Sequence record: OZ035775.1
DNA from: Sashavirus BDX09P1
Length of the DNA: 58,371 nucleotides
Strand: one strand, 5' to 3'
This document shows positions 30-58,371 of this stretch, one piece after another. The stretch's first letter is position 1, and each line of letters begins with the position of its first letter. The translations under genes and the position numbers were made by a program. The notes below the pieces were generated by a model, which had not been told where the DNA came from, searched no databases, and saw nothing but the letters and a program-made list of their open reading frames with translations.

Positions 30-665
30 ATGAAAATTTCAGACCGGGCTAAAAGAGCTGCTCTGGAGTTAACAACCGATCAACTCCGCTTTGCTAACCT
101 GTGGTTAGATCGTGTCAATAACGGCTTCAGCAATGCTCAGTGCGTCTTACACGCTTATCCTGGGCATAAAGACCCTGACGCAGCTAAAGTCACCGCACAT
201 CGCCTCCTGTCGAACAGGAAGGTGTTGAACTATCTGGACGCGATGGGAAGTCATGCGCTTGAATCTGTCGGGGAATCGTTAACGAGTCGTGTCGAGTGGT
301 GGAAACGAGCGGCAAGCACGGCTGAAGAATTACTGGAACCGTATTGTCAGCGTGTCATCGTCCCTGGTGAAGACGATACAGAAGCGAAACACCTGTGGGT
401 GAACAGTACCGACGATATCCCCAGCCATCTGCAACAGTACGTAGTTTGCTACAAACGTTACATGCTGGGCGGATACATTCTGGTGACGCGTGAACTGTTC
501 GACCCGAAAACTCGTGCAAAAGCGTCTGAACAACTGGATAAAATCACCGGGAACAGTATCGACCGTGTGGAACTGTCTGGTGTGGTTGGTAACGTGGTTC
601 AGAGTGTTCCTGAAGGTGCAACTATCGACGACATCGCGCAACTGTATCAGAAGGCGTTGAAATAG
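30..665 (+). CDS. terminase small subunit-like DNA-binding protein
   Basis: N-terminal region (LTTDQLRFANLWL...NAQCVLHAYPG...AAKVTAHRLLSNRKVLNYLDA) fits the helix-turn-helix pattern of phage TerS proteins; GGGAGA RBS before ATG at 30; terminator follows. Confidence 0.5.
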   Translation: MKISDRAKRAALELTTDQLRFANLWLDRVNNGFSNAQCVLHAYPGHKDPDAAKVTAHRLLSNRKVLNYLDAMGSHALESVGESLTSRVEWWKRAASTAEELLEPYCQRVIVPGEDDTEAKHLWVNSTDDIPSHLQQYVVCYKRYMLGGYILVTRELFDPKTRAKASEQLDKITGNSIDRVELSGVVGNVVQSVPEGATIDDIAQLYQKALK

Positions 666-3816: not shown

Positions 3817-3858
3817 AGTCTATCTGATAATGTGTAAACCGTCAAGAATTATTTTAAA
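3817..3858 (-). promoter_or_regulatory. sigma70-like promoter P2 (conserved motif copy)
   Basis: Minus strand TTTAAAATAATTC-TTGACG-17-TAGACT. Confidence 0.6.
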
Positions 3859-4026
3859 CTGTCCGTCACTATCTGCGGCGTAACAAATACCGTGACTGTA
3901 GATTGTCGCAGTTCGTGTAATGCGTTGATAGTCTGAACATTGGTTACGAATACGCAGGTCGTAACCGGACTGTATGATCAGCAAGGTTGCAATGATGGCG
4001 AGTAACTTTAAAACGTATCTGAACAT
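3820..4026 (-). CDS. hypothetical membrane/secreted protein
   Basis: Hydrophobic N-terminus MFRYVLKLLAIIATLLII. Confidence 0.35.
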   Translation of the reverse strand: MFRYVLKLLAIIATLLIIQSGYDLRIRNQCSDYQRITRTATIYSHGICYAADSDGQFKIILDGLHIIR

Positions 4027-4087
4027 GTTCCACACTCCTGTTTGATAGTTTCAGGGTAGTGTGGAACTGGTGAAGATGGTATAGGAT

Positions 4088-4486
4088 TTACGATAATTTA
4101 ACAGTTAATCCGGCGTTGGTCAGGACGTTACACACGTCGCGAACACCAGCATTATATCCGTCTATAAGTGTTGCAGGTGAGTTAATACAGATACCAACAT
4201 GTTTCGGTAATTCAATTACCAACTGTTCCCGGCTGGCTTTCCACATGTCCCACGCGCGATTCAAACGATCGCCTTCTTCCACGGTGTACTCGTCATCTTT
4301 CCTTAATTTTTCTAAGACGTTTTTTGGTGTTCCGTATTTGTCTGAATAACACGCTTCAAACTGTTCACGACTCTTATCCACTTTTTCAACCCTCCAGCCG
4401 TATTTAGCATGACTCATAGCGGTCCGTTCATCATTCGTGGTGAACATTACGCGTCCGGATTTATGACAAATATTCCAAGTCGTCAT
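4088..4486 (-). CDS. hypothetical protein
   Basis: Track ORF, 132 aa. Confidence 0.45.
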   Translation of the reverse strand: MTTWNICHKSGRVMFTTNDERTAMSHAKYGWRVEKVDKSREQFEACYSDKYGTPKNVLEKLRKDDEYTVEEGDRLNRAWDMWKASREQLVIELPKHVGICINSPATLIDGYNAGVRDVCNVLTNAGLTVKLS

Positions 4487-4538
4487 TTCGTTAATACACC
4501 AATAATGAAAATTAGCATGTAGAATAAAACATTACGGG

Positions 4539-4697
4539 TCATAATTCATAAACCTTAAAACTACCGCCTGAATAGCGATGTTTACCACACAACTTACAAC
4601 GGTGTTCCTGATTGGCATAATTACGTTCATCCCCGTGGATAGTACGATATAAATACCATTCGTGTTTGCAGAATAATCGTTTGAGAAACATCTTCAT
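4539..4697 (-). CDS. small Cys/His-containing protein (52 aa)
   Basis: Below threshold ORF MKMFLKRLFCKHEW...HRCKLCGKH; C-x-H...C-x2-C spacing resembles a zinc ribbon. Confidence 0.3.
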   Translation of the reverse strand: MKMFLKRLFCKHEWYLYRTIHGDERNYANQEHRCKLCGKHRYSGGSFKVYEL

Positions 4698-5653: not shown

Positions 5654-5716
5654 CATCTGTCACAACCAATCACCCGTGGTAAACTGTACAGAACAGTTAC
5701 AAACGGGCCGATAACC

Positions 5717-7480: not shown

Positions 7481-7521
7481 ACAGTGTGGCGGGATTATTC
7501 CCGTCATTTTCTTTTTAATTC

Positions 7522-7553
7522 TTGACAAATTACATTATAAATGTTTGTAAATT
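7522..7553 (+). promoter_or_regulatory. promoter-like variant of conserved motif
   Basis: TTAATTC-TTGACA-AATTAC resembles motif core without full UP element; -10 uncertain (TAAATT about 20 bp downstream). Confidence 0.35.
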
Positions 7554-7640
7554 ATCTGTTAGATTAATGTAACACGTCTATACTCCTGCAGGTAACCAAT
7601 CGGTTACAGTTAATTAACATTCTCTCACAGGAGTTTCAAC

Positions 7641-18400: not shown

Positions 18401-18949
18401 TTATAACCCCAGTAAAAGTTTAAGCGCACGTTTACGAACATCATCCTGTTTACGCAAAGTAGTTAATTCCTTTTGCAGATTTTCTTTCTCTTCCCATAAC
18501 TTTTTCATGTCTATCAACAATAAATCATAGGTCTTACGATTGACTTCAATTTCGTTACGTAGTTCGTCATTCTGTTTATGCAATTCTCCGATTTCACACT
18601 GTAACTGTAGTAACGGTTGATGTTGGTGATTATTCAACTTCTTTAATTTGGCTAGTACAGCTTTGCGAACGGCTTTAGATTCACGCATACCCACAAGAAG
18701 CATTTGGTCCATGTTTAGATCGATCACTTCAAACGGTTTTCTATTGCCACCTCTTCCCTGAAGTTTGGGTGTGAAAAGTTTCGTAACCAAAACTTGACCT
18801 TCTAATTCATCCTTAACTCTGGTTAAGAAATCATTATGACGGACCCAGATTTCCTCACCTTCAGCCACACGTGCTGGGTTGATGACATTCTTCAAGAAAT
18901 CCAGGCTGGACATTGTGAATTTGTTATCAACATTCATAACTTCAAACAT
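18401..18949 (-). CDS. Rha-like regulatory protein with coiled-coil C-terminus
   Basis: N-terminal ...KFTMSSLDFLKNV... resembles Rha-family motif; C-terminal heptad-rich region. Confidence 0.4.
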   Translation of the reverse strand: MFEVMNVDNKFTMSSLDFLKNVINPARVAEGEEIWVRHNDFLTRVKDELEGQVLVTKLFTPKLQGRGGNRKPFEVIDLNMDQMLLVGMRESKAVRKAVLAKLKKLNNHQHQPLLQLQCEIGELHKQNDELRNEIEVNRKTYDLLLIDMKKLWEEKENLQKELTTLRKQDDVRKRALKLLLGL

Positions 18950-18962
18950 AACCGTCAACCTC

Positions 18963-19028
18963 TTACTATTCCTACAATTACAGGTACTGCGAAAATCATG
19001 AAAGCCAGTATGTAGTAAATCATCGCGT
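18963..19028 (-). CDS. 22-aa hydrophobic peptide
   Basis: MIYYILAFMIFAVPVIVGIVRG with AAGGAGA RBS directly downstream of P7. Confidence 0.25.
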
Positions 19029-19056: not shown

Positions 19057-19098
19057 AAGATAGTCGTGTTGGTGTAATCCGTCAAGAATTATTTTAAA
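19057..19098 (-). promoter_or_regulatory. sigma70-like promoter P7 (conserved motif copy)
   Basis: Minus strand TTTAAAATAATTC-TTGACG-17-TATCTT. Confidence 0.6.
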
Positions 19099-19103
19099 GA
19101 TAC

Positions 19104-19190
19104 AGCTAATACAGAATGTGTATTAGCTACACATGGTTTTACATAGGTTTCATGATTTTGAGTTGCAGCTAATACAGAACGTGTATTAAT
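19104..19190. promoter_or_regulatory. two palindromic operator-like sites
   Basis: AGCTAATACA-gaatg-TGTATTAGCT (perfect 10-bp arms) and an imperfect second copy ~60 bp away. Confidence 0.4.
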
Positions 19191-19203
19191 AGATCATAAA
19201 TTC

Positions 19204-19335
19204 ATAGATTTCGTCATGTTTATTTTTCAACCAACCACTCTCTATCTTATTCTTTTTATTATCTTTTTATAGAAAACATAATAAACATAGATAAACAGAA
19301 GAGTAGTATAAGTAGTAAAAGTTGCTGCAAGTAGG
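19204..19335. repeat. AT-rich dispersed element, copy A
   Basis: ~130-150 bp clearly alignable with 58021-58175; first ~60 nt roughly 90% identical by eye. Confidence 0.6.
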
Positions 19336-19382
19336 AGAGGTTTAAAAGGTATAGGGAGTCGCATACTTCCCATGAATCTATA

Positions 19383-19424
19383 CGTAAAATAATTCTTGAC
19401 GGATTACATCGACACAACTACCCT
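19383..19424 (+). promoter_or_regulatory. sigma70-like promoter P8 (conserved motif, plus orientation)
   Basis: TAAAATAATTC-TTGACG-17-TACCCT leading the structural operon. Confidence 0.5.
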
Positions 19425-29212: not shown

Positions 29213-29274
29213 CATTTGTCGCTTTTTAGACCCGTGTTAAACTGTGTATATGCTTCGTGAAAAGGTTAACCACA

Positions 29275-49358: not shown

Positions 49359-51713
49359 ATGAAAGGGTTACTGAACCGTAAACAGTGGGTCATGTGGCGG
49401 CTTGAGACAGTCGCCGATCGTCCAAAACCAACGAAAGTACCATACAGCCCGGTACACGGTTATAAAGCCAGTACCACTAACCCTAACGACTGGTCTGACT
49501 ATCACACCGCGTTGGGTATGGCGCAAATGTACGGTATGTCTGGTGTTGGTTTCGTATTCACAGAAAATGATCCTTATTTCTTTATTGATGTTGATAACTG
49601 TCTGGTAGATCAGGCAACAGCTACGTGGTCACCACTAGCGCATGAATTCGTAAACCGTTTTCCAAATGCTTACACTGAAGTCAGTCAGTCAGGAACAGGT
49701 TTGCATATTATCTGTGCTTATACCAGCATACCGGAAGGTTTTAACAGTCTGAACGACCAGAAAACCGGGCTGGAAATGTACTGGCGTGATCGTTTCGTCG
49801 CGATGACGCTCACGGGTAATGGTGATGTTGATATTGATTATACCCAGGGCATTCATGATTCTATTGCCCGGTATGGTCGCATCCGTTCAGACCGTTCCGC
49901 ACGCTGGACAACAGCACCCTGTGATGACTGGTCAGGCCCGGCAGACGATGATGAACTGATTAAAATGGCGTTAAATTCGTCCAGTGCTGCTTCAGTATTT
50001 GGTAATAAAGCGTCATTTGCAGATCTGTGGAATGCAAACGTTGAACGCCTGTCTGTGTCATATCCCAGCGACCAGGGAAAAGACTACAATGCATCTGCCG
50101 CTGATGCTGCCCTGTGCTCACACCTTGCGTTCTGGACCGGGAAAGATTGCGAACGTATTGAACGTCTATTTAACCGTTCCGGACTGGTTCGTGGTAAATG
50201 GACAGATCGTCAGGATTACCGTGAAAACACGATTCTGGGCGCTGTGGAACGTTGTGATACGGTTTATCGTAGTCAACCGACGCTGACACCAGAACTGATG
50301 AAAGCAGTCACACCAGCGCCTACCGTCGTTCCTAATGGTGGAACACCTGCGTACATGAGTGTGAAACCCGGTGAAGGTGCATATGGTTCAAACCACACGG
50401 TTAACGCATCCACGTTCGTTAATAACTATTATCCGAACAACACTTTGATTTTCGTCCAGCAACAGCCGTACCGGTTCAACGGTCGCGTGTGGGAACGTGT
50501 GAGTGAAGATGAACTGAAACATCAGATATCTATGGCAATGCTCGCCAGCGAACCAAAAGCTGACGTGATCAATGGTACGTACAAGGTTTTGTCGTATTTA
50601 TTCACACGCGCTGATCGTGAGCTTGGAACATGGCCCGGCGTTGATGTATCACACTATATTGTTTGTCAGAATGGGATACTGGATGTACATACGGGTAAAT
50701 GTGATGCACATAACCCGGACTTCTTTACGACCAGTATTTTACCGTATAGCTACGATCCGTTTGCCCGTGCGCCAGCATTTGAACAGTTTCTTAATACAAC
50801 TCTGGAAGGTGATCAGGAACGTATTGCACTGTTGCAGGAATGGCTGGGTTACATGCTTGTCAACTCGTATGACTATCAGAAAGCGATGCTGTTGATTGGT
50901 GCGCCACGTTCCGGTAAAGGTACGATTGGTCGAATCATTCAGGCACTAGTAGGTGATGAAGCGTATGCAGGGATCACACTGGAGGGTTTAGCCAGTGATG
51001 CGGTACTTGAAACTGTGCTGGATAAATCTGTACTGTTTATTGGTGATGCTCACAGTGTGTCCGGGCCTGATCGCAACCGAATTCTGGACCGTTTCAAATC
51101 TATTACAGGTTGTGATGCGATTCCGGTTAATCGTAAGTATAAAGGTGCATGGAACGGTCGTTTACCGGGACGTATGACACTGGCTGCTAACAACATCCCG
51201 GCATTTGCTGATGATTCAGGTGCAATGGCTAACCGTTTGCTGATCCTACCATTCAACATTTCGTTCCTGGGTCGTGAAGATACCACTCTGGAAGCACGAC
51301 TGATGAAAGAACTACCGGGGATCTGTAACTGGGCGATTGAAGGTTTGCAACGGTTACGTGCAAACGGACGGTTTACTGAACCAAAAGCAAGTCTGGAAGA
51401 ACGTCAGGAAATTATGGATCAACAATCACCACTTAGAAGTTTTATCAGAGATTGTTGCGAATTGGTATCTGATGGTGAGGTGCATACTGAAGAACTCTAT
51501 GGTCGTTATCGTCTCTGGAAAACACAGGAAGGTGGTCCAGCAATGACTAAAACTGCATTTAGTCGGGCATTTAAATCCACCCTTCGTGGTAAAGTGAAAA
51601 AAGACGTTGTTAATATAAATAACGTACGATTAAACGGTTTCAGGGGTATTCGTCTTCTCCCTTTTCAGTCAACAGCTAATGTAGTGCCTTTCCCACCTGC
51701 GAGTAACGGTTAG
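49359..51713 (+). CDS. primase / D5-like replicative NTPase
   Basis: 784 aa; Walker A GAPRSGKGT in C-terminal half, N-terminal primase-polymerase-sized domain. Confidence 0.75.
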   Translation: MKGLLNRKQWVMWRLETVADRPKPTKVPYSPVHGYKASTTNPNDWSDYHTALGMAQMYGMSGVGFVFTENDPYFFIDVDNCLVDQATATWSPLAHEFVNRFPNAYTEVSQSGTGLHIICAYTSIPEGFNSLNDQKTGLEMYWRDRFVAMTLTGNGDVDIDYTQGIHDSIARYGRIRSDRSARWTTAPCDDWSGPADDDELIKMALNSSSAASVFGNKASFADLWNANVERLSVSYPSDQGKDYNASAADAALCSHLAFWTGKDCERIERLFNRSGLVRGKWTDRQDYRENTILGAVERCDTVYRSQPTLTPELMKAVTPAPTVVPNGGTPAYMSVKPGEGAYGSNHTVNASTFVNNYYPNNTLIFVQQQPYRFNGRVWERVSEDELKHQISMAMLASEPKADVINGTYKVLSYLFTRADRELGTWPGVDVSHYIVCQNGILDVHTGKCDAHNPDFFTTSILPYSYDPFARAPAFEQFLNTTLEGDQERIALLQEWLGYMLVNSYDYQKAMLLIGAPRSGKGTIGRIIQALVGDEAYAGITLEGLASDAVLETVLDKSVLFIGDAHSVSGPDRNRILDRFKSITGCDAIPVNRKYKGAWNGRLPGRMTLAANNIPAFADDSGAMANRLLILPFNISFLGREDTTLEARLMKELPGICNWAIEGLQRLRANGRFTEPKASLEERQEIMDQQSPLRSFIRDCCELVSDGEVHTEELYGRYRLWKTQEGGPAMTKTAFSRAFKSTLRGKVKKDVVNINNVRLNGFRGIRLLPFQSTANVVPFPPASNG

Positions 51714-54250: not shown

Positions 54251-55018
54251 ATGGCTAACATTAACTCCCTTCGCAAGCTATCTGATACCGATAAAACCAA
54301 CGTAAAACGTGGTAACGCGTATCGTATTGATCCGCGTATCATCAAGATTCGCCCAGGACATAACCCACGCGGTGTATTTACCGACAACTACTGGGAAACC
54401 GAAGCAGCACTGGCACACATTGAAAACTTTCGTCAGGCTTATACTAACGGTGATTTCGTTCCACCGATCGTGGTACAGGTTGTTGACGGTGTTCCGTATG
54501 TCCAGGATGGTGAGCATCGTTTACGTGGCGTGTTAGCAGCTATTGAAGCCGGGACGCCGATTCTGACAGTAGACGTTGTTGAATCGTCCGGTGACGAACT
54601 ACAACAGACCCTGACACTATTAAAAGGTAATGAGGGTAAACCGTGGTCACCCGTTGAACGTGCTGTTATTTACGGTCGTTTCCGTTCATACGGCATGAGT
54701 GTTGAGCAGATCGCTACACAGGTCGGTAAAACCGTCCAACACGTTTACGAACAACTGAATATTCTTGATATGCCACTGGAACTTAAACGTCGTATTCAGA
54801 ACGGTGAAATCAGCGCATCAGCAGCCATTCGCCAGTTTAAAGCAGGTGATAAAGAACCAGTAGTAACGCGTCGTCCGCCTGCTAAACTGGTACGGTCCGC
54901 AGTGGAAGCAATCCGTGGTGAATGGTCTGTAACCCGTTCGGAAGGTGGTAAAGTCCTGGTTGAACTTACCGCTGAACAGTTTGAAGCGTTAAAAGCACTG
55001 AAGGAGCACCAGTTATGA
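54251..55018 (+). CDS. ParB-like nuclease-domain protein
   Basis: ParB N-terminal signature VQDGEHRLRGVLAA (GERRxRA-like). Confidence 0.65.
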   Translation: MANINSLRKLSDTDKTNVKRGNAYRIDPRIIKIRPGHNPRGVFTDNYWETEAALAHIENFRQAYTNGDFVPPIVVQVVDGVPYVQDGEHRLRGVLAAIEAGTPILTVDVVESSGDELQQTLTLLKGNEGKPWSPVERAVIYGRFRSYGMSVEQIATQVGKTVQHVYEQLNILDMPLELKRRIQNGEISASAAIRQFKAGDKEPVVTRRPPAKLVRSAVEAIRGEWSVTRSEGGKVLVELTAEQFEALKALKEHQL

Positions 55019-57066: not shown

Positions 57067-57073
57067 CAAAAAA

Positions 57074-57092
57074 GCGGGGCTAACTACCCCGC
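57074..57092. terminator. bidirectional hairpin terminator
   Basis: GCGGGG-ctaacta-CCCCGC flanked by A-run and T-rich sequence. Confidence 0.55.
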
Positions 57093-57097
57093 TATCT

Positions 57098-57823
57098 TTA
57101 TTGACCCATCATATCTTTATACATCATCAAAACAACATCATCCGGCATATTATCTACATCGCAATGCGGGTTGTGTGACAACGCATACAGTCTGATTTTC
57201 TCCTTCAAATCGCTGACATCGACTACAGGTGGTTCCACTCGTGCTACAGGTGGTTCCACTCGTGCTACAGGTGGTTCACAAACCATCACGTTAAACGGTG
57301 TCCCGGTGCCTTCGTATTTTTCAAGCAAATCAACCATTACATTTACACATTCTGGGGTCCATCCCCGGCGCAAACCATTCTGAATCCAACTATCAGTAAT
57401 TGTGTGTTCGTTTAAATTCCTGCGTAGCACATATCTTGCACATTCAAAATTACCGCACATCGCCTCAAACCGTATCCACACGTCGTGACCGTGAACAGCT
57501 TCCAGGATCTGTGAATCAACGTATCTGACACGTTGCCAGTAGTTATTAGCAAAACGCCTGTGTGGTAATTTCTGACGCAGTTCGGTAACCGGTATTGTGC
57601 GTTTAAGAACAACTTCACCAACATCAATCACCGGATCCAGATTCGGCAACCCAAGTTTTTTCATGATGATGTTAAGCGTGGTAGCCAGTGGGTACTGCTT
57701 ACCCGCCATCCATTCGTTATAACGACCAACTGAAATTTTAACGTCGTGTTCAGCAAGATAATCAACAGCCTCGCGTAAACCACCCATCGCATCAGCAAAT
57801 TCTTTAAAAATATTCTTTTTCAT
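57098..57823 (-). CDS. putative HTH regulatory protein with EPPVARV repeats
   Basis: N-terminal region resembles a small HTH (CII/Cro-like pattern); in-frame EPPVARV x2.5; next to iteron-rich AT region. Confidence 0.4.
   Translation of the reverse strand: MKKNIFKEFADAMGGLREAVDYLAEHDVKISVGRYNEWMAGKQYPLATTLNIIMKKLGLPNLDPVIDVGEVVLKRTIPVTELRQKLPHRRFANNYWQRVRYVDSQILEAVHGHDVWIRFEAMCGNFECARYVLRRNLNEHTITDSWIQNGLRRGWTPECVNVMVDLLEKYEGTGTPFNVMVCEPPVARVEPPVARVEPPVVDVSDLKEKIRLYALSHNPHCDVDNMPDDVVLMMYKDMMGQ
57223..57280 (-). repeat. 21-bp in-frame tandem repeat (about 2.7 copies)
   Basis: CTACAGGTGGTTCCACTCGTG repeated. Confidence 0.8.
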
Positions 57824-57872
57824 ATCACCCTCCTTTTTCTTTTATTTTACCACGGGGTGAGAATTATGCAAG

Positions 57873-58001
57873 TAATCCTGTCATAGTGTTACAGCTAATC
57901 CTATGGTAGAACGACTGACTATCATAGGATTGATCGCAAACTGTTAATACTAAGATAGAACACTATGATAGTATTAGTGTTACGGTTAATCCTGTCATAG
58001 T
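57873..58001. promoter_or_regulatory. iteron / operator-like cluster
   Basis: TAATCCTGTCATAGT direct repeat at ~57873 and ~57987; palindrome AATCCTATG...CATAGGATT between; multiple CATAG/CTATG units. Confidence 0.4.
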
Positions 58002-58020
58002 ATCAAAATCATAGATTGGT

Positions 58021-58175
58021 ATAGATTTCGTCATGTTTATTTTTTAACCAACCCCTCTTTATTTTATTCTTTTTATTATTTTTTTCATAGATAACATAGA
58101 AAACATAGATATAAAGAAGAAGTAGTATAGAAAGATAGAGATAATACTAGAGTAGTGTAAGCTGCAAATAAAGGT
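58021..58175. repeat. AT-rich dispersed element, copy B
   Basis: Alignable with 19204-19335 (ATAGATTTCGTCATGTTTATTTTT-AACCAAC...ATTCTTTTTATTAT...AGTAGTATA...GCTGCAA). Confidence 0.6.
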
Positions 58176-58371
58176 AAAATAAAAGTCTGGGAGATACCTA
58201 TTGTAATCTATGTTTTCATGCAAGTATTTGAAATTGTTGTGGTTATGGGTTACGTATTTATGTATGTGATCGAAAATTAGTGCACGTTGTGTATTATCTG
58301 TAAACTTAATACTAACATTGTATTAGCTGTAAAACAGGGCGTGTGGACAACCCGTGGGTATCTGTGGGAAA

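What the first reader, a model, noticed from the sequence alone, without database searches (positions are those of the whole stretch)
57840..58371. Iteron-rich terminal region carrying the second copy of the dispersed element
Direct repeats TAATCCTGTCATAGT (x2), a palindrome AATCCTATG...CATAGGATT, many CATAG/CTATG units and AGCTAAT half-sites matching the 19.1 kb operator all occur beside a minus-strand HTH-like gene. If the genome is circular or permuted, this region lies directly upstream of the terminase small subunit gene at the window start. It is a candidate origin, packaging site or master regulatory region.
Basis: partly seen in the sequence, partly recalled or inferred. Interest (0 to 1): 0.55.

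Follow-up and report, generated by a model that had tools for sequence, protein, structure and literature searches.

The report
Regulator-site array upstream of phage terS
This is the conserved 550-bp control region between a Cro-like DNA-binding gene and the small-terminase gene of a 9NA-like virulent phage: lineage-specific protein-binding sites bracket the genome's most AT-rich element, so it most likely switches genes on or off and may also serve as a replication origin.

Summary
The window is a complete, arbitrarily linearised genome of a 9NA-like (Sashavirus/Nonanavirus) headful-packaging siphophage. "Terminal" is therefore a record artefact: the region is the divergent intergenic space between gene 57098-57823 and terS (30-665).

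The gene's N-terminus folds as a Cro/XRE helix-turn-helix. Across about 14 relatives the layout is constant: 3-7 sites, the AT-rich element, one site, then site(s) near terS. The site sequence falls into six types, each paired with its own HTH variant. TerS and the ParB-like protein stay conserved and so cannot explain the variable sites. One site (58142-58160) has switched type inside otherwise 91-95% conserved DNA. In other lineages a cognate site sits on the terS ribosome-binding site.

Best reading (about 0.5): operators of the adjacent regulator, giving autoregulation and terS control. Serious rival (about 0.3): an iteron-type origin, because the shared element is the least stable duplex in the genome. 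A pac function is weakly supported. Nothing comparable was found in the literature I could read; the key paper (Zeng et al. 2019) was not available.

The parts
57073..57093 (.). Bidirectional intrinsic terminator separating the rightward operon (ends 57066) from the leftward regulator gene
   Evidence: 7-8 bp GC-rich stem with T-runs on both strands; Sergei and AVIO78A annotate a terminator at the same place
57098..57823 (-). gp84-like gene (241 aa): N-terminal Cro/XRE HTH (aa ~1-60, nt 57644-57823), flexible linker, conserved all-alpha central domain (aa ~72-180) with no fold match, PPVARVE repeat linker, C-terminal helices
57613..58020 (.). Lineage-specific cassette: HTH-coding part of the gene plus site array A. 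It matches no phage in the GenBank collection; only one Logan metagenome contig (L038) shares it
   Evidence: Alignments to all nine relatives break at 57612 and resume at 58021; L038 carries the same cassette at ~96%
57844..57871 (-). Candidate promoter of the regulator gene: -35 TTGCAT (57871-57866), 16-bp spacer ending in TGG, -10 TAAAAT (57849-57844). Alternative: GTAACA-18-CATAAT (57892-57863)
   Evidence: Read from the sequence. Site S1 abuts the -35 of the first candidate and fills the spacer of the second. In relatives TTGCAC-17-TATGAT is overlapped by their first site. Inference only
57873..58000 (.). Array A: six 14-nt sites TAATMCTNNNNTAG. S1 57873-57886(+), S2 57896-57909(+), S3 57919-57932(-), S4 57945-57958(+), S5 57963-57976(-), S6 57987-58000(+). 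Start-to-start spacing 18-26 bp. Most are preceded by the outer arm GTTAC(A/G)G
   Evidence: The motif is found nowhere else in the genome at 0 mismatches except S7
58021..58132 (+). Element B (dispersed element, copy 2): CATAGAT-type motifs, a T-rich run (58035-58085), then three 9-bp repeats CATAGATAA/CATAGAAAA/CATAGATAT (58086-58112) and an A-rich tail
   Evidence: 87-95% identical to 19205-19313 and to relatives. The core is conserved in all lineages and at both loci. TRF finds a period-9 array. It is the least stable 60/100/150-bp duplex in the genome, z 4.4-4.6. No RNA structure or Rfam signal
58142..58155 (+). Site S7 (TAATACTAGAGTAG), the single cognate site just right of element B
   Evidence: It is positionally orthologous to a cognate site in every lineage. 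The 19 bp are 42% identical to Bas82, while the flanks are 91-95%
58206..58233 (.). ATCTATGTTTTC (58206-58217), a perfect inverted copy of 58099-58110, followed by the IHF-like TTTCAAATACTTG (58221-58233, minus strand)
   Evidence: I13; TTTCAAnnnnCTTR is present between B and terS in nearly all lineages. One mismatch to the IHF consensus; binding not tested
58278..58325 (.). Two 19-bp palindromic operators, O3 58278-58296 (TAGTGCACGTTGTGTATTA) and O4 58307-58325 (TAATACTAACATTGTATTA), of the type shared with Sasha-like relatives and with the 19-kb locus
   Evidence: TARTRCA-N5-TGYAYTA at <=1 mismatch occurs only at 19107, 19170, 58278 and 58307. O4 is 100% conserved in Bas82
58352..58363 (+). 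Candidate terS promoter -10 region, CCGTGGGTATCT (extended -10 TGn + GTATCT), within the cluster-wide conserved AACCCGTGGNTATCNGTGNGAAACTA
   Evidence: the same CCGTG(N)T(W)A(W)CT motif lies 25-55 nt upstream of the terL (5674) and tape-measure (29232) starts, and of 9NA terS and head genes. Conservation shown. Inference only
30..665 (+). terS (211 aa), the gene controlled from this region; RBS GGGAGA 17-22
   Evidence: phrog_51; Sergei, PJ16, AVIO78A and 9NA annotate 636-bp genes. It is followed by terminator-like hairpins (read)
19057..19424 (.). Sister locus upstream of the head genes: leftward canonical promoter (19057-19098), operators O1 19107-19125 and O2 19170-19188, element B copy 1 (19205-19313), rightward canonical promoter (19385-19424)
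   Evidence: The same layout is found in 9NA at 15.85-16.2 kb, with 9NA-type sites

Best explanation
The region is the control region shared by two divergent genes: the gp84-like regulator gene (leftward) and terS (rightward). The regulator uses its N-terminal Cro/XRE helix-turn-helix to bind the repeated sites. These are S1-S6 next to its own promoter, S7 just beyond the AT-rich element B, and the palindromes O3/O4 about 50-90 bp upstream of the probable terS promoter. Binding would repress its own transcription (S1 abuts or overlaps the promoter) and set the level or timing of terS expression. A reduced copy of the same control region (two operators plus element B) lies upstream of the head-gene operon at 19.1-19.4 kb, next to a strong leftward early promoter, so the same protein could coordinate that early/late junction. 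In outline this resembles the phi29 p4 switch region between divergent early and late promoters. What is shown: the anatomy, the HTH fold, the co-variation of sites with the HTH domain, the positional conservation of the sites, and the independence from TerS and ParB. What is inferred: that this protein is the binder, the promoter positions, the sign of regulation, and any role for element B. Element B is conserved in all lineages, so it must be read by a conserved host or phage factor, or act through its physical properties.
Against: There are no binding data and no mapped transcription starts. The co-variation is confounded by physical linkage: the HTH-coding DNA and array A are contiguous and move as one cassette. 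Only S7, the terS-proximal sites and the 19-kb sites are unlinked evidence. In the window and in Sergei, the 19-kb operators are not of the same subtype as array A. The window's sites do share the CAGCTAAT half-site core with them. Eight to ten sites in 550 bp is more than a simple repressor usually needs. Element B (conserved, duplicated, extremely AT-rich, with 9-mer repeats) is not explained by this model. I found no convincing sigma-70 promoter for terS that the sites overlap in the window lineage.
Confidence: 0.5

Rival explanations
1. Replication origin of the iteron / lambda-ori type, possibly doubling as a regulatory region. The gp84-like protein is the origin-recognition factor, array A and S7 are its iterons, and element B is the DNA-unwinding element where the conserved NrS-1-like PrimPol/SF3 helicase (49359-51713) is loaded. 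The 19-kb copy would be a second origin or a control locus.
For: The two copies of element B are the two least stable duplex segments in the genome at 60, 100 and 150 bp (z 4.0-4.6). Each lies between divergent transcription units, which would add negative supercoiling. The order AT-rich element - site array - autoregulatory site - binder gene matches pSC101/R6K/P1-type replicons, and 19-bp dyad-symmetric repeats next to an AT-rich block match lambda ori (my knowledge). A variable DNA-binding domain with a conserved remainder parallels lambda O in lambdoid phages (my knowledge). In 9NA-type lineages all 7-8 sites are direct repeats of a ~26-bp unit. Two-locus origins are known: SPP1 oriL/oriR and P4 ori/crr (my knowledge). 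No other initiator candidate is annotated, and the replicase is a PrimPol+D5_N/SF3 helicase. The 9-mer repeats of B are conserved, like that enzyme.
Against: The protein has a Cro/XRE HTH and no similarity to Rep_3, lambda O, DnaA, RepL or other initiator families. Site spacing is irregular in most lineages (25-65 bp), and orientation is mixed in the window. DnaA boxes are not conserved. A cognate site on the terS RBS in two specificity classes has no obvious origin role. GC skew turns at both loci but simply follows gene orientation, so it is uninformative. There are no replication data.
Confidence: 0.3
2. Packaging (pac) recognition region. TerS, alone or with the gp84-like protein as a specificity factor, assembles on repeats upstream of its own gene, and terminase makes the series-initiating cuts in or near element B.
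For: The region lies immediately upstream of terS, as with SPP1 and P1 pac (my knowledge). The regulator gene and terS are adjacent in all relatives examined. The conserved elements (CATAGAT motifs, B, AACCCGTGGNTATCNGTGNGAAACTA, an IHF-like site) could be read by the conserved TerS. 9NA-like phages are pac-headful packagers (PMC4153490; PMC8954984 citing Zeng 2019). Several related GenBank records were opened inside or at the end of element B.
Against: The variable sites do not track TerS. [quoted passage not shown] In many headful phages pac lies inside terS (my knowledge). There are no end-mapping data for this phage. The published map of the 170-bp 9NA cleavage region (Zeng 2019) could not be read.
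Confidence: 0.1
3. No specific function: AT-rich intergenic DNA whose repeats arose by slippage or duplication, with conservation due to recent common ancestry.
For: Low-complexity AT-rich DNA does generate short repeats. ATAGATA-type arrays occur by chance in many unrelated viral contigs.
Against: The layout is kept across lineages whose site sequences are unrelated. The motifs are confined to two loci. Enrichment is far above shuffles. The element B core is conserved between phages whose flanks have diverged beyond alignment.
Confidence: 0.03

Closest known systems
Phage Cro/CI-type (XRE) repressor-operator modules, including phi29 p4 and other early/late switch regions between divergent promoters (comparison from my own knowledge)
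   Same: An XRE-type HTH protein is encoded next to its own sites. The sites are pseudo-palindromic, 14-19 bp, and abut its promoter and the neighbouring divergent gene. The DNA-binding domain and sites are exchanged together as a specificity cassette, as in lambdoid immunity regions.
   Different: The phage is virulent, with no lysogeny genes reported for the group (PMC4153490). There are 8-10 sites rather than 3-6. The HTH is fused to a conserved ~110-aa all-alpha domain with no fold match. The sites bracket a conserved, duplicated AT-rich element. A second reduced copy lies 39 kb away.
Iteron replicons (pSC101, R6K, P1) and lambda ori/O (from my own knowledge)
   Same: An array of repeated binding sites lies next to an AT-rich, easily melted block. 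The binder gene is adjacent, with a site at its promoter. The N-terminal DNA-binding part varies while the rest is conserved among relatives.
   Different: The binder is not a winged-helix Rep_3 or lambda-O-type protein. Spacing is not in a regular ~22-bp phase in most lineages, there are no conserved DnaA boxes, and extra sites lie on the terS 5' region.
Two-locus origins: SPP1 oriL/oriR (G38P) and P4 ori/crr (alpha primase-helicase); papillomavirus E2/E1 origin (from my own knowledge)
   Same: Two dispersed copies of binding sites plus an AT-rich block in one genome. The replicase is an SF3-helicase-type primase. In the E2 analogy, one dimeric site-specific protein both regulates transcription and marks the origin.
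   Different: No homology to G38P, P4 alpha or E2, and no evidence that either locus initiates replication.
pac sites of SPP1 (pacL/pacC/pacR) and P1 (from my own knowledge)
   Same: A repeat-rich, bendable region with an IHF-like site immediately upstream of terS in a headful packager.
   Different: The repeats vary while TerS does not, and the element is duplicated, whereas a single pac fragment is reported for 9NA (PMC4153490).

Membership tests
Cro/C1 (XRE) HTH regulator with cognate operators | DNA-binding domain with the XRE/Cro-C1 helix-turn-helix fold | tested here: met
Cro/C1 (XRE) HTH regulator with cognate operators | Repeated, partly dyad-symmetric sites at or next to the regulator's own promoter and the divergent gene | tested here: met
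   S1-S7 and O3/O4. S1 abuts the candidate promoter. Cognate sites lie on the terS RBS in the 9NA and L044 classes. Promoter positions are inferred
Cro/C1 (XRE) HTH regulator with cognate operators | Site sequence co-varies with the DNA-binding domain among relatives | tested here: met
   Six HTH variants pair with six site types. S7 switched within conserved DNA. Caveat: physical linkage; also a subtype mismatch at the 19-kb locus in the window and Sergei
Cro/C1 (XRE) HTH regulator with cognate operators | Demonstrated binding and transcriptional effect | not testable with these tools
   Needs EMSA/footprinting, ChIP-seq and transcript mapping
Iteron-type / lambda-type replication origin | Three or more initiator-binding repeats adjacent to an AT-rich unwinding element | tested here: met
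   Array A plus element B. B is the least stable duplex in the genome. This shows anatomy only
Iteron-type / lambda-type replication origin | Binder belongs to a known initiator family (Rep_3, lambda O, DnaA, RepL, etc.) | tested here: not met
   No Pfam family; PHROG of unknown function; no PDB sequence match; fold matches only XRE HTH
Iteron-type / lambda-type replication origin | Regularly phased direct repeats (~one or two helical turns) | tested here: inconclusive
   Window: spacing 23, 23, 26, 18, 24 bp but mixed orientation. 9NA-type: all direct but spaced 25-65 bp
Iteron-type / lambda-type replication origin | Conserved host-factor sites (DnaA boxes, IHF) | tested here: inconclusive
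   No conserved DnaA box. An IHF-like TTTCAAnnnnCTTR (1 mismatch) is conserved between B and terS
Iteron-type / lambda-type replication origin | Replication initiates here | not testable with these tools
   GC skew follows gene orientation and is uninformative
pac site (TerS recognition and cleavage region) | Lies in or next to terS | tested here: met
   Contiguity shown through the Bas82 record
pac site (TerS recognition and cleavage region) | Recognition repeats match the specificity of TerS | tested here: not met
   For the variable sites: TerS 1-70 is 66-100% identical across lineages whose sites are unrelated. The conserved motifs remain compatible but untested
pac site (TerS recognition and cleavage region) | One locus per genome, matching the single pac fragment | tested here: not met
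   Element B and its flanking sites are present at two loci in the window, Bas82, PJ16, Sergei and 9NA. A single pac fragment is reported in 9NA (PMC4153490)
pac site (TerS recognition and cleavage region) | Virion DNA ends map here | not testable with these tools
   Zeng et al. 2019 mapped 9NA cleavages to a 170-bp region (recalled from that paper's abstract, from memory) but the paper is not held
ParB/parS-like centromere or KorB-type sites | Sites match the specificity of the phage ParB-like HTH protein | tested here: not met
   The ParB-like protein (54251-55018; PF17762) is 93% identical to 9NA gp81, with an identical HTH, while the sites differ completely

The most novel reading that the evidence does not exclude
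The gp84-like protein is a dual-function, papillomavirus-E2-like factor. Its fast-evolving Cro-type domain selects lineage-specific sites that bracket the conserved AT-rich/9-mer element. Its conserved central domain recruits the conserved NrS-1-like PrimPol/SF3 helicase, so the terS and head loci would be two origins whose specificity cassette gives each lineage of a virulent phage its own replicon identity, while the same protein also times terS expression.
Probability: 0.2. Interest if true: 0.7.

Novelty: new variant of a known kind. Interest (0 to 1): 0.45.

Why it matters
[quoted passage not shown] They include candidates for Salmonella and E. coli biocontrol (PMC8273493, PMC10612097) and a plasmid-dependent phage (PMC12137930). 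This region supplies the first concrete, testable regulatory circuit for the group: a named protein, mapped candidate sites, six natural specificity variants that can be swapped, and a precise candidate for the origin or unwinding element. It would also be an example of immunity-region-style cassette exchange in a strictly virulent phage. Practically, it shows that related GenBank records are opened inside a functional element, and that one TerS annotation is over-extended across the operators.

Tried and rejected
(1) Structured RNA. Rfam found nothing at gathering threshold across the whole window, nor at E<=1 in 57800-58371, and there are no tRNAs. Folding element B on either strand gave z-scores of -0.3 to -0.6 for the terS copy; only the minus strand of the 19-kb copy reached -2.9. 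Rejected.

(2) Small ORFs in element B. These are short and not conserved between the two copies (read). Rejected.

(3) Element B as a general late promoter. terL and the tape-measure gene have the late-type -10 motif without B or sites, and ATAGA-type k-mers peak only at the two loci. Rejected as a general promoter.

(4) ACCCGTGG as a special signal. It occurs 16 times, mostly in coding DNA, and spells the preferred codons ACC-CGT-GG(T). Only the versions followed by T(W)A(W)CT near gene starts were kept, as promoter candidates.

(5) TerS or the ParB-like protein as binder of the variable sites. Rejected on conservation.

(6) GC skew as origin evidence. It follows gene strand. Uninformative.

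(7) Searches that gave little:
- IMG/VR scans with a 17-mer and with the degenerate site pair returned chance hits.
- The 9-mer scan hit many AT-rich giant-virus contigs, plus some true relatives.
- Zeng et al. 2019 is not held.
- The afdb50 fold library was unavailable.
- Papers on PDP46, AVIO78A, Sergei, BstA and TayeBlu say nothing about this region.

(8) NrS-1 PrimPol recognition sequences (TTTGGTTA, GTGG/GTGA; PMC8718748) loosely resemble GGTTGGTTAA on the bottom strand of B and the CCGTGG motif. This is a recalled resemblance, not a test, and I gave it no weight.

Full report
**What the window is.** The 58,371-bp window is a complete genome of a 9NA-like siphophage (Sashavirus/Nonanavirus). 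The finding region and its flanks match Escherichia phage KarinMuster_Bas82, Sashavirus 536P12, Salmonella phages Sasha, Sergei and Solent, and E. coli phages PJ16, AVIO78A and PDP46 at 89-96%. In the circular Bas82 record, window 58021->778 is a single collinear 91.9% alignment, so the window's two ends join. [quoted passage not shown] The 'terminal' position is therefore a consequence of where the record was opened. The region is the ~577-bp divergent intergenic space between the leftward gene 57098-57823 and terS. The true terS start is ATG 30 (211 aa, RBS at 17-22), as annotated in Sergei, PJ16, AVIO78A and 9NA.

**Check of the observation.** Everything listed is present.
- The 15-mer direct repeat and the 13-nt palindrome are reported by the repeat finder.
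- CATAG/CTATG occurs 10 times in 532 bp. The genome mean per window is 0.6 and Markov simulations give 1.2.
- Five of the ten genomic AGCTAAT copies fall in this region or at 19.1 kb.
- The repeats generalise to a 14-nt motif, TAATMCTNNNNTAG, with six exact copies against 0.19 expected and a seventh with one mismatch. These form array A (S1-S6, 57873-58000, spacing 18-26 bp, mixed orientation) plus an isolated S7 at 58142.
- The 'dispersed element' is a ~112-nt stretch (58021-58132) that is 87-95% identical to 19205-19313.

**Anatomy.** From left to right the region contains:
- a bidirectional terminator (57073-57093);
- the gene 57098-57823;
- its RBS and a candidate promoter (TTGCAT-16-TGG-TAAAAT, 57871-57844, or GTAACA-18-CATAAT), abutted or overlapped by S1;
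- array A;
- element B, made of a T-rich run and then three 9-bp repeats of CATAGATAA type;
- S7;
- a perfect 12-nt inverted copy of part of B (I13);
- an IHF-like TTTCAAATACTTG;
- two 19-bp palindromes, O3 and O4 (58278-58296 and 58307-58325);
- a cluster-wide conserved AACCCGTGGGTATCTGTGGGAAACTA;
- the terS RBS.

The palindrome TARTRCA-N5-TGYAYTA occurs at exactly four places in the genome: O3, O4, and O1/O2 at 19107 and 19170. The 19-kb locus is a reduced copy of the same region. It has a leftward canonical promoter, O1, O2, element B and a rightward canonical promoter, just upstream of the head genes.

**The neighbouring protein.** The 241-aa product has no Pfam family and belongs to a PHROG of unknown function.
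- An AlphaFold2 model (pLDDT 77.7) has a four-helix N-terminal domain.
- The central all-alpha domain (aa ~72-180) has no structural match.
- The family is tiny, with 14 representatives among 1.8 billion proteins.
- In every contig examined, the gene lies divergent from a 211-aa terS with 410-780 bp between them.

**Comparative evidence.** All nine GenBank relatives lose similarity to the window exactly between 57613 and 58020. That stretch covers the HTH-coding part of the gene plus array A. One metagenome contig (L038) shares this cassette. In the relatives the same space holds arrays of other motifs. Across about 14 genomes there are six classes, each pairing one HTH variant with one site type.

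The layout is constant:
- 3-7 sites next to the regulator gene;
- element B;
- exactly one cognate site 40-60 bp beyond B's 9-mers;
- then site(s) near terS.

In the 9NA class and in the unrelated L044/L134 class, a cognate site lies 6-11 nt from the terS ATG. Within DNA that is 91-95% identical between the window and Bas82, the 19 bp of S7 are only 42% identical, having changed from the Sasha type to the window type.

The HTH domain averages 46% identity between lineages, against 80% for TerS residues 1-70. The ParB-like protein is 93% identical between the window and 9NA, with an identical HTH. PJ16 and 9NA have essentially the window's TerS N-terminus but different sites. The variable sites are therefore not TerS or ParB sites, and the adjacent HTH protein is the obvious binder. 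In 9NA the sites are confined to the same two loci: seven at terS, two at the head locus, and one doubtful site elsewhere.

Two caveats apply. First, HTH and array A are physically linked, so only S7, the terS-proximal sites and the head-locus sites count as unlinked evidence. Second, the head-locus operators of the window (Sasha subtype) and of Sergei (L043/L044-like) do not match their own array A subtype. The window's sites do share the half-site CAGCTAAT(A/C)C and the outer arm GTTACAG with the Sasha-type operators, so cross-recognition is plausible.

**Element B.** Its core, a T-rich run followed by three ATAGATA(R)(Y) 9-mers, is conserved in all lineages and at both loci, even where the flanks no longer align. 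The two copies are the two least stable duplex segments in the whole genome at 60, 100 and 150 bp (z 4.4-4.6 and 4.0-4.2). B shows no RNA-structure or Rfam signal and no conserved ORF. It is not a general late promoter. terL and the tape-measure gene carry the late-type motif CCGTG(G/T)TAAACTGT 35-45 nt before their starts, without B or sites. Variants of that motif precede terS (58352-58363) and the 9NA terS and head genes. B also marks the right-hand recombination boundary of the specificity cassette.

**Mechanism.** The best-supported reading (confidence about 0.5) is a transcriptional control region. The Cro-type protein binds its lineage-specific sites, represses its own promoter, and controls terS. 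In the 9NA and L044 classes it would do so by sitting on the 5' end of the terS transcription unit. In the window lineage it would act from about -55 and -84 relative to the predicted start. It could also act at the head-locus junction, next to a strong leftward early promoter, where O1 is centred near -66. This resembles the phi29 p4 early/late switch (my knowledge).

The main rival (about 0.3) is an iteron- or lambda-type origin, possibly combined with regulation. The order 'AT-rich block - site array - autoregulatory site - binder gene' is that of pSC101/R6K/P1 replicons. Dyad-symmetric 19-mers beside an AT-rich block recall lambda ori. Two-locus origins exist in SPP1 and P4. The replicase is an NrS-1-like PrimPol fused to a D5_N/SF3 helicase. 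Against this rival:
- the protein is not from any initiator family;
- site spacing is irregular;
- no DnaA boxes are conserved;
- the terS-RBS sites have no obvious origin role.

A pac function (about 0.1) fits the location and the strict linkage of the regulator gene to terS. However, the variable sites ignore TerS, and the element occurs twice whereas 9NA has one pac fragment. If pac does lie in this region, the conserved CCGTGG...GAAACTA block or element B would be the candidates.

**Novelty and limits.** No paper I could read describes this region. The one paper likely to discuss it (Zeng et al. 2019) is not held, so prior description cannot be ruled out. I class the finding as a new variant of a known kind: a Cro-type regulator/operator specificity cassette, here in a virulent phage, fused to a novel domain, and bracketing a duplicated unwinding-prone element. 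All functional statements are inferences from sequence, structure prediction and comparison. Binding, transcription starts, replication initiation and DNA ends all remain to be measured.

Noticed in passing
window 1440, 3839, 5634, 11139, 13361, 14503, 19079, 29193, 46875, 46938 (minus strand); 19388, 51735, 54180 (plus strand): There is a family of ~13 near-identical strong sigma-70-type promoters, (T)TTAAAATAATTCTTGAC(G/A)G(A/T)TT(A/G)CA-N10-TAnnnT. Most drive the blocks of small leftward genes interspersed among the virion genes. None lies in the finding region. A 27-nt core is 100% identical in 9NA and in several Klebsiella phages.
   Followed up: partly
window 5674-5685 and 29232-29243; variants at 58352-58363, 9NA 239 and 16171: A second promoter-like motif, CCGTG(G/T)TAAACTGT (extended -10 type), lies 35-45 nt upstream of the terL and tape-measure starts, with variants before terS and the head genes. 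It may be the late-gene promoter class of these phages.
   Followed up: partly
window 57223-57277: A 21-bp tandem repeat (2.6 copies, 100% match) inside the regulator gene encodes a PPVARVE proline-rich linker. Copy number ranges from none in the 9NA class to about 11 in one metagenomic homologue (P0003), so linker length is hypervariable.
   Followed up: partly
L001 (Bas82 PQ850612) 3848-4600; window 58284-58371 + 1-29: The Bas82 TerS annotation (250 aa) starts 39 codons upstream of the conserved MKISD start used in 9NA, Sergei, PJ16 and AVIO78A. The extension runs across operators O3/O4 and is probably an over-extension. The window's own ORF call from ATG 15 is likewise 5 codons too long.
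   Followed up: partly
L036 (Sergei 18.7-19.0 kb) versus L043/L044: The head-locus control region of Sergei, Sasha and Solent is mosaic. Its repeats (TACATATCTGGT...) and its B element resemble the L043/L044 and 9NA classes, not the Sasha-type array at its own terS locus. It also lacks the rightward canonical promoter present in the window, Bas82 and PJ16.
   Followed up: partly
window 54251-55018 and 49359-51713: The ParB-like HTH protein is 93% identical to 9NA gp81, making it one of the most conserved proteins compared here. The 'primase' is an NrS-1-type PrimPol fused to a D5_N/SF3 helicase. Either could be the conserved reader of element B.
   Followed up: no
L041 2238-2504, L042 2238-2504: Two 9NA-class metagenomic relatives carry an extra 88-aa ORF inserted between the regulator gene and the site array, lengthening the intergenic region to ~780 bp.
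   Followed up: no
window, whole genome (1-kb bins): Cumulative GC skew has its minimum at ~19 kb and its maximum at ~57 kb, which are the two loci carrying element B. The skew sign follows gene orientation block by block, so it says nothing independent about replication.
   Followed up: partly
window 18401-18958 and 18959-19023 (minus strand): The leftward unit driven from the 19-kb locus encodes a ~21-aa hydrophobic peptide and a 185-aa protein with weak anti-repressor (phrog_8235) similarity. This unit differs between relatives: in Bas82 it encodes an RDF-annotated protein and an unrelated hypothetical.
   Followed up: no
window 7512-7571: The third most AT-rich, least stable segment of the genome (z 3.8) lies between terL and the next rightward gene. 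It contains a promoter-like TTCTTGACAAATTACA but no repeats of the kinds described here.
   Followed up: no
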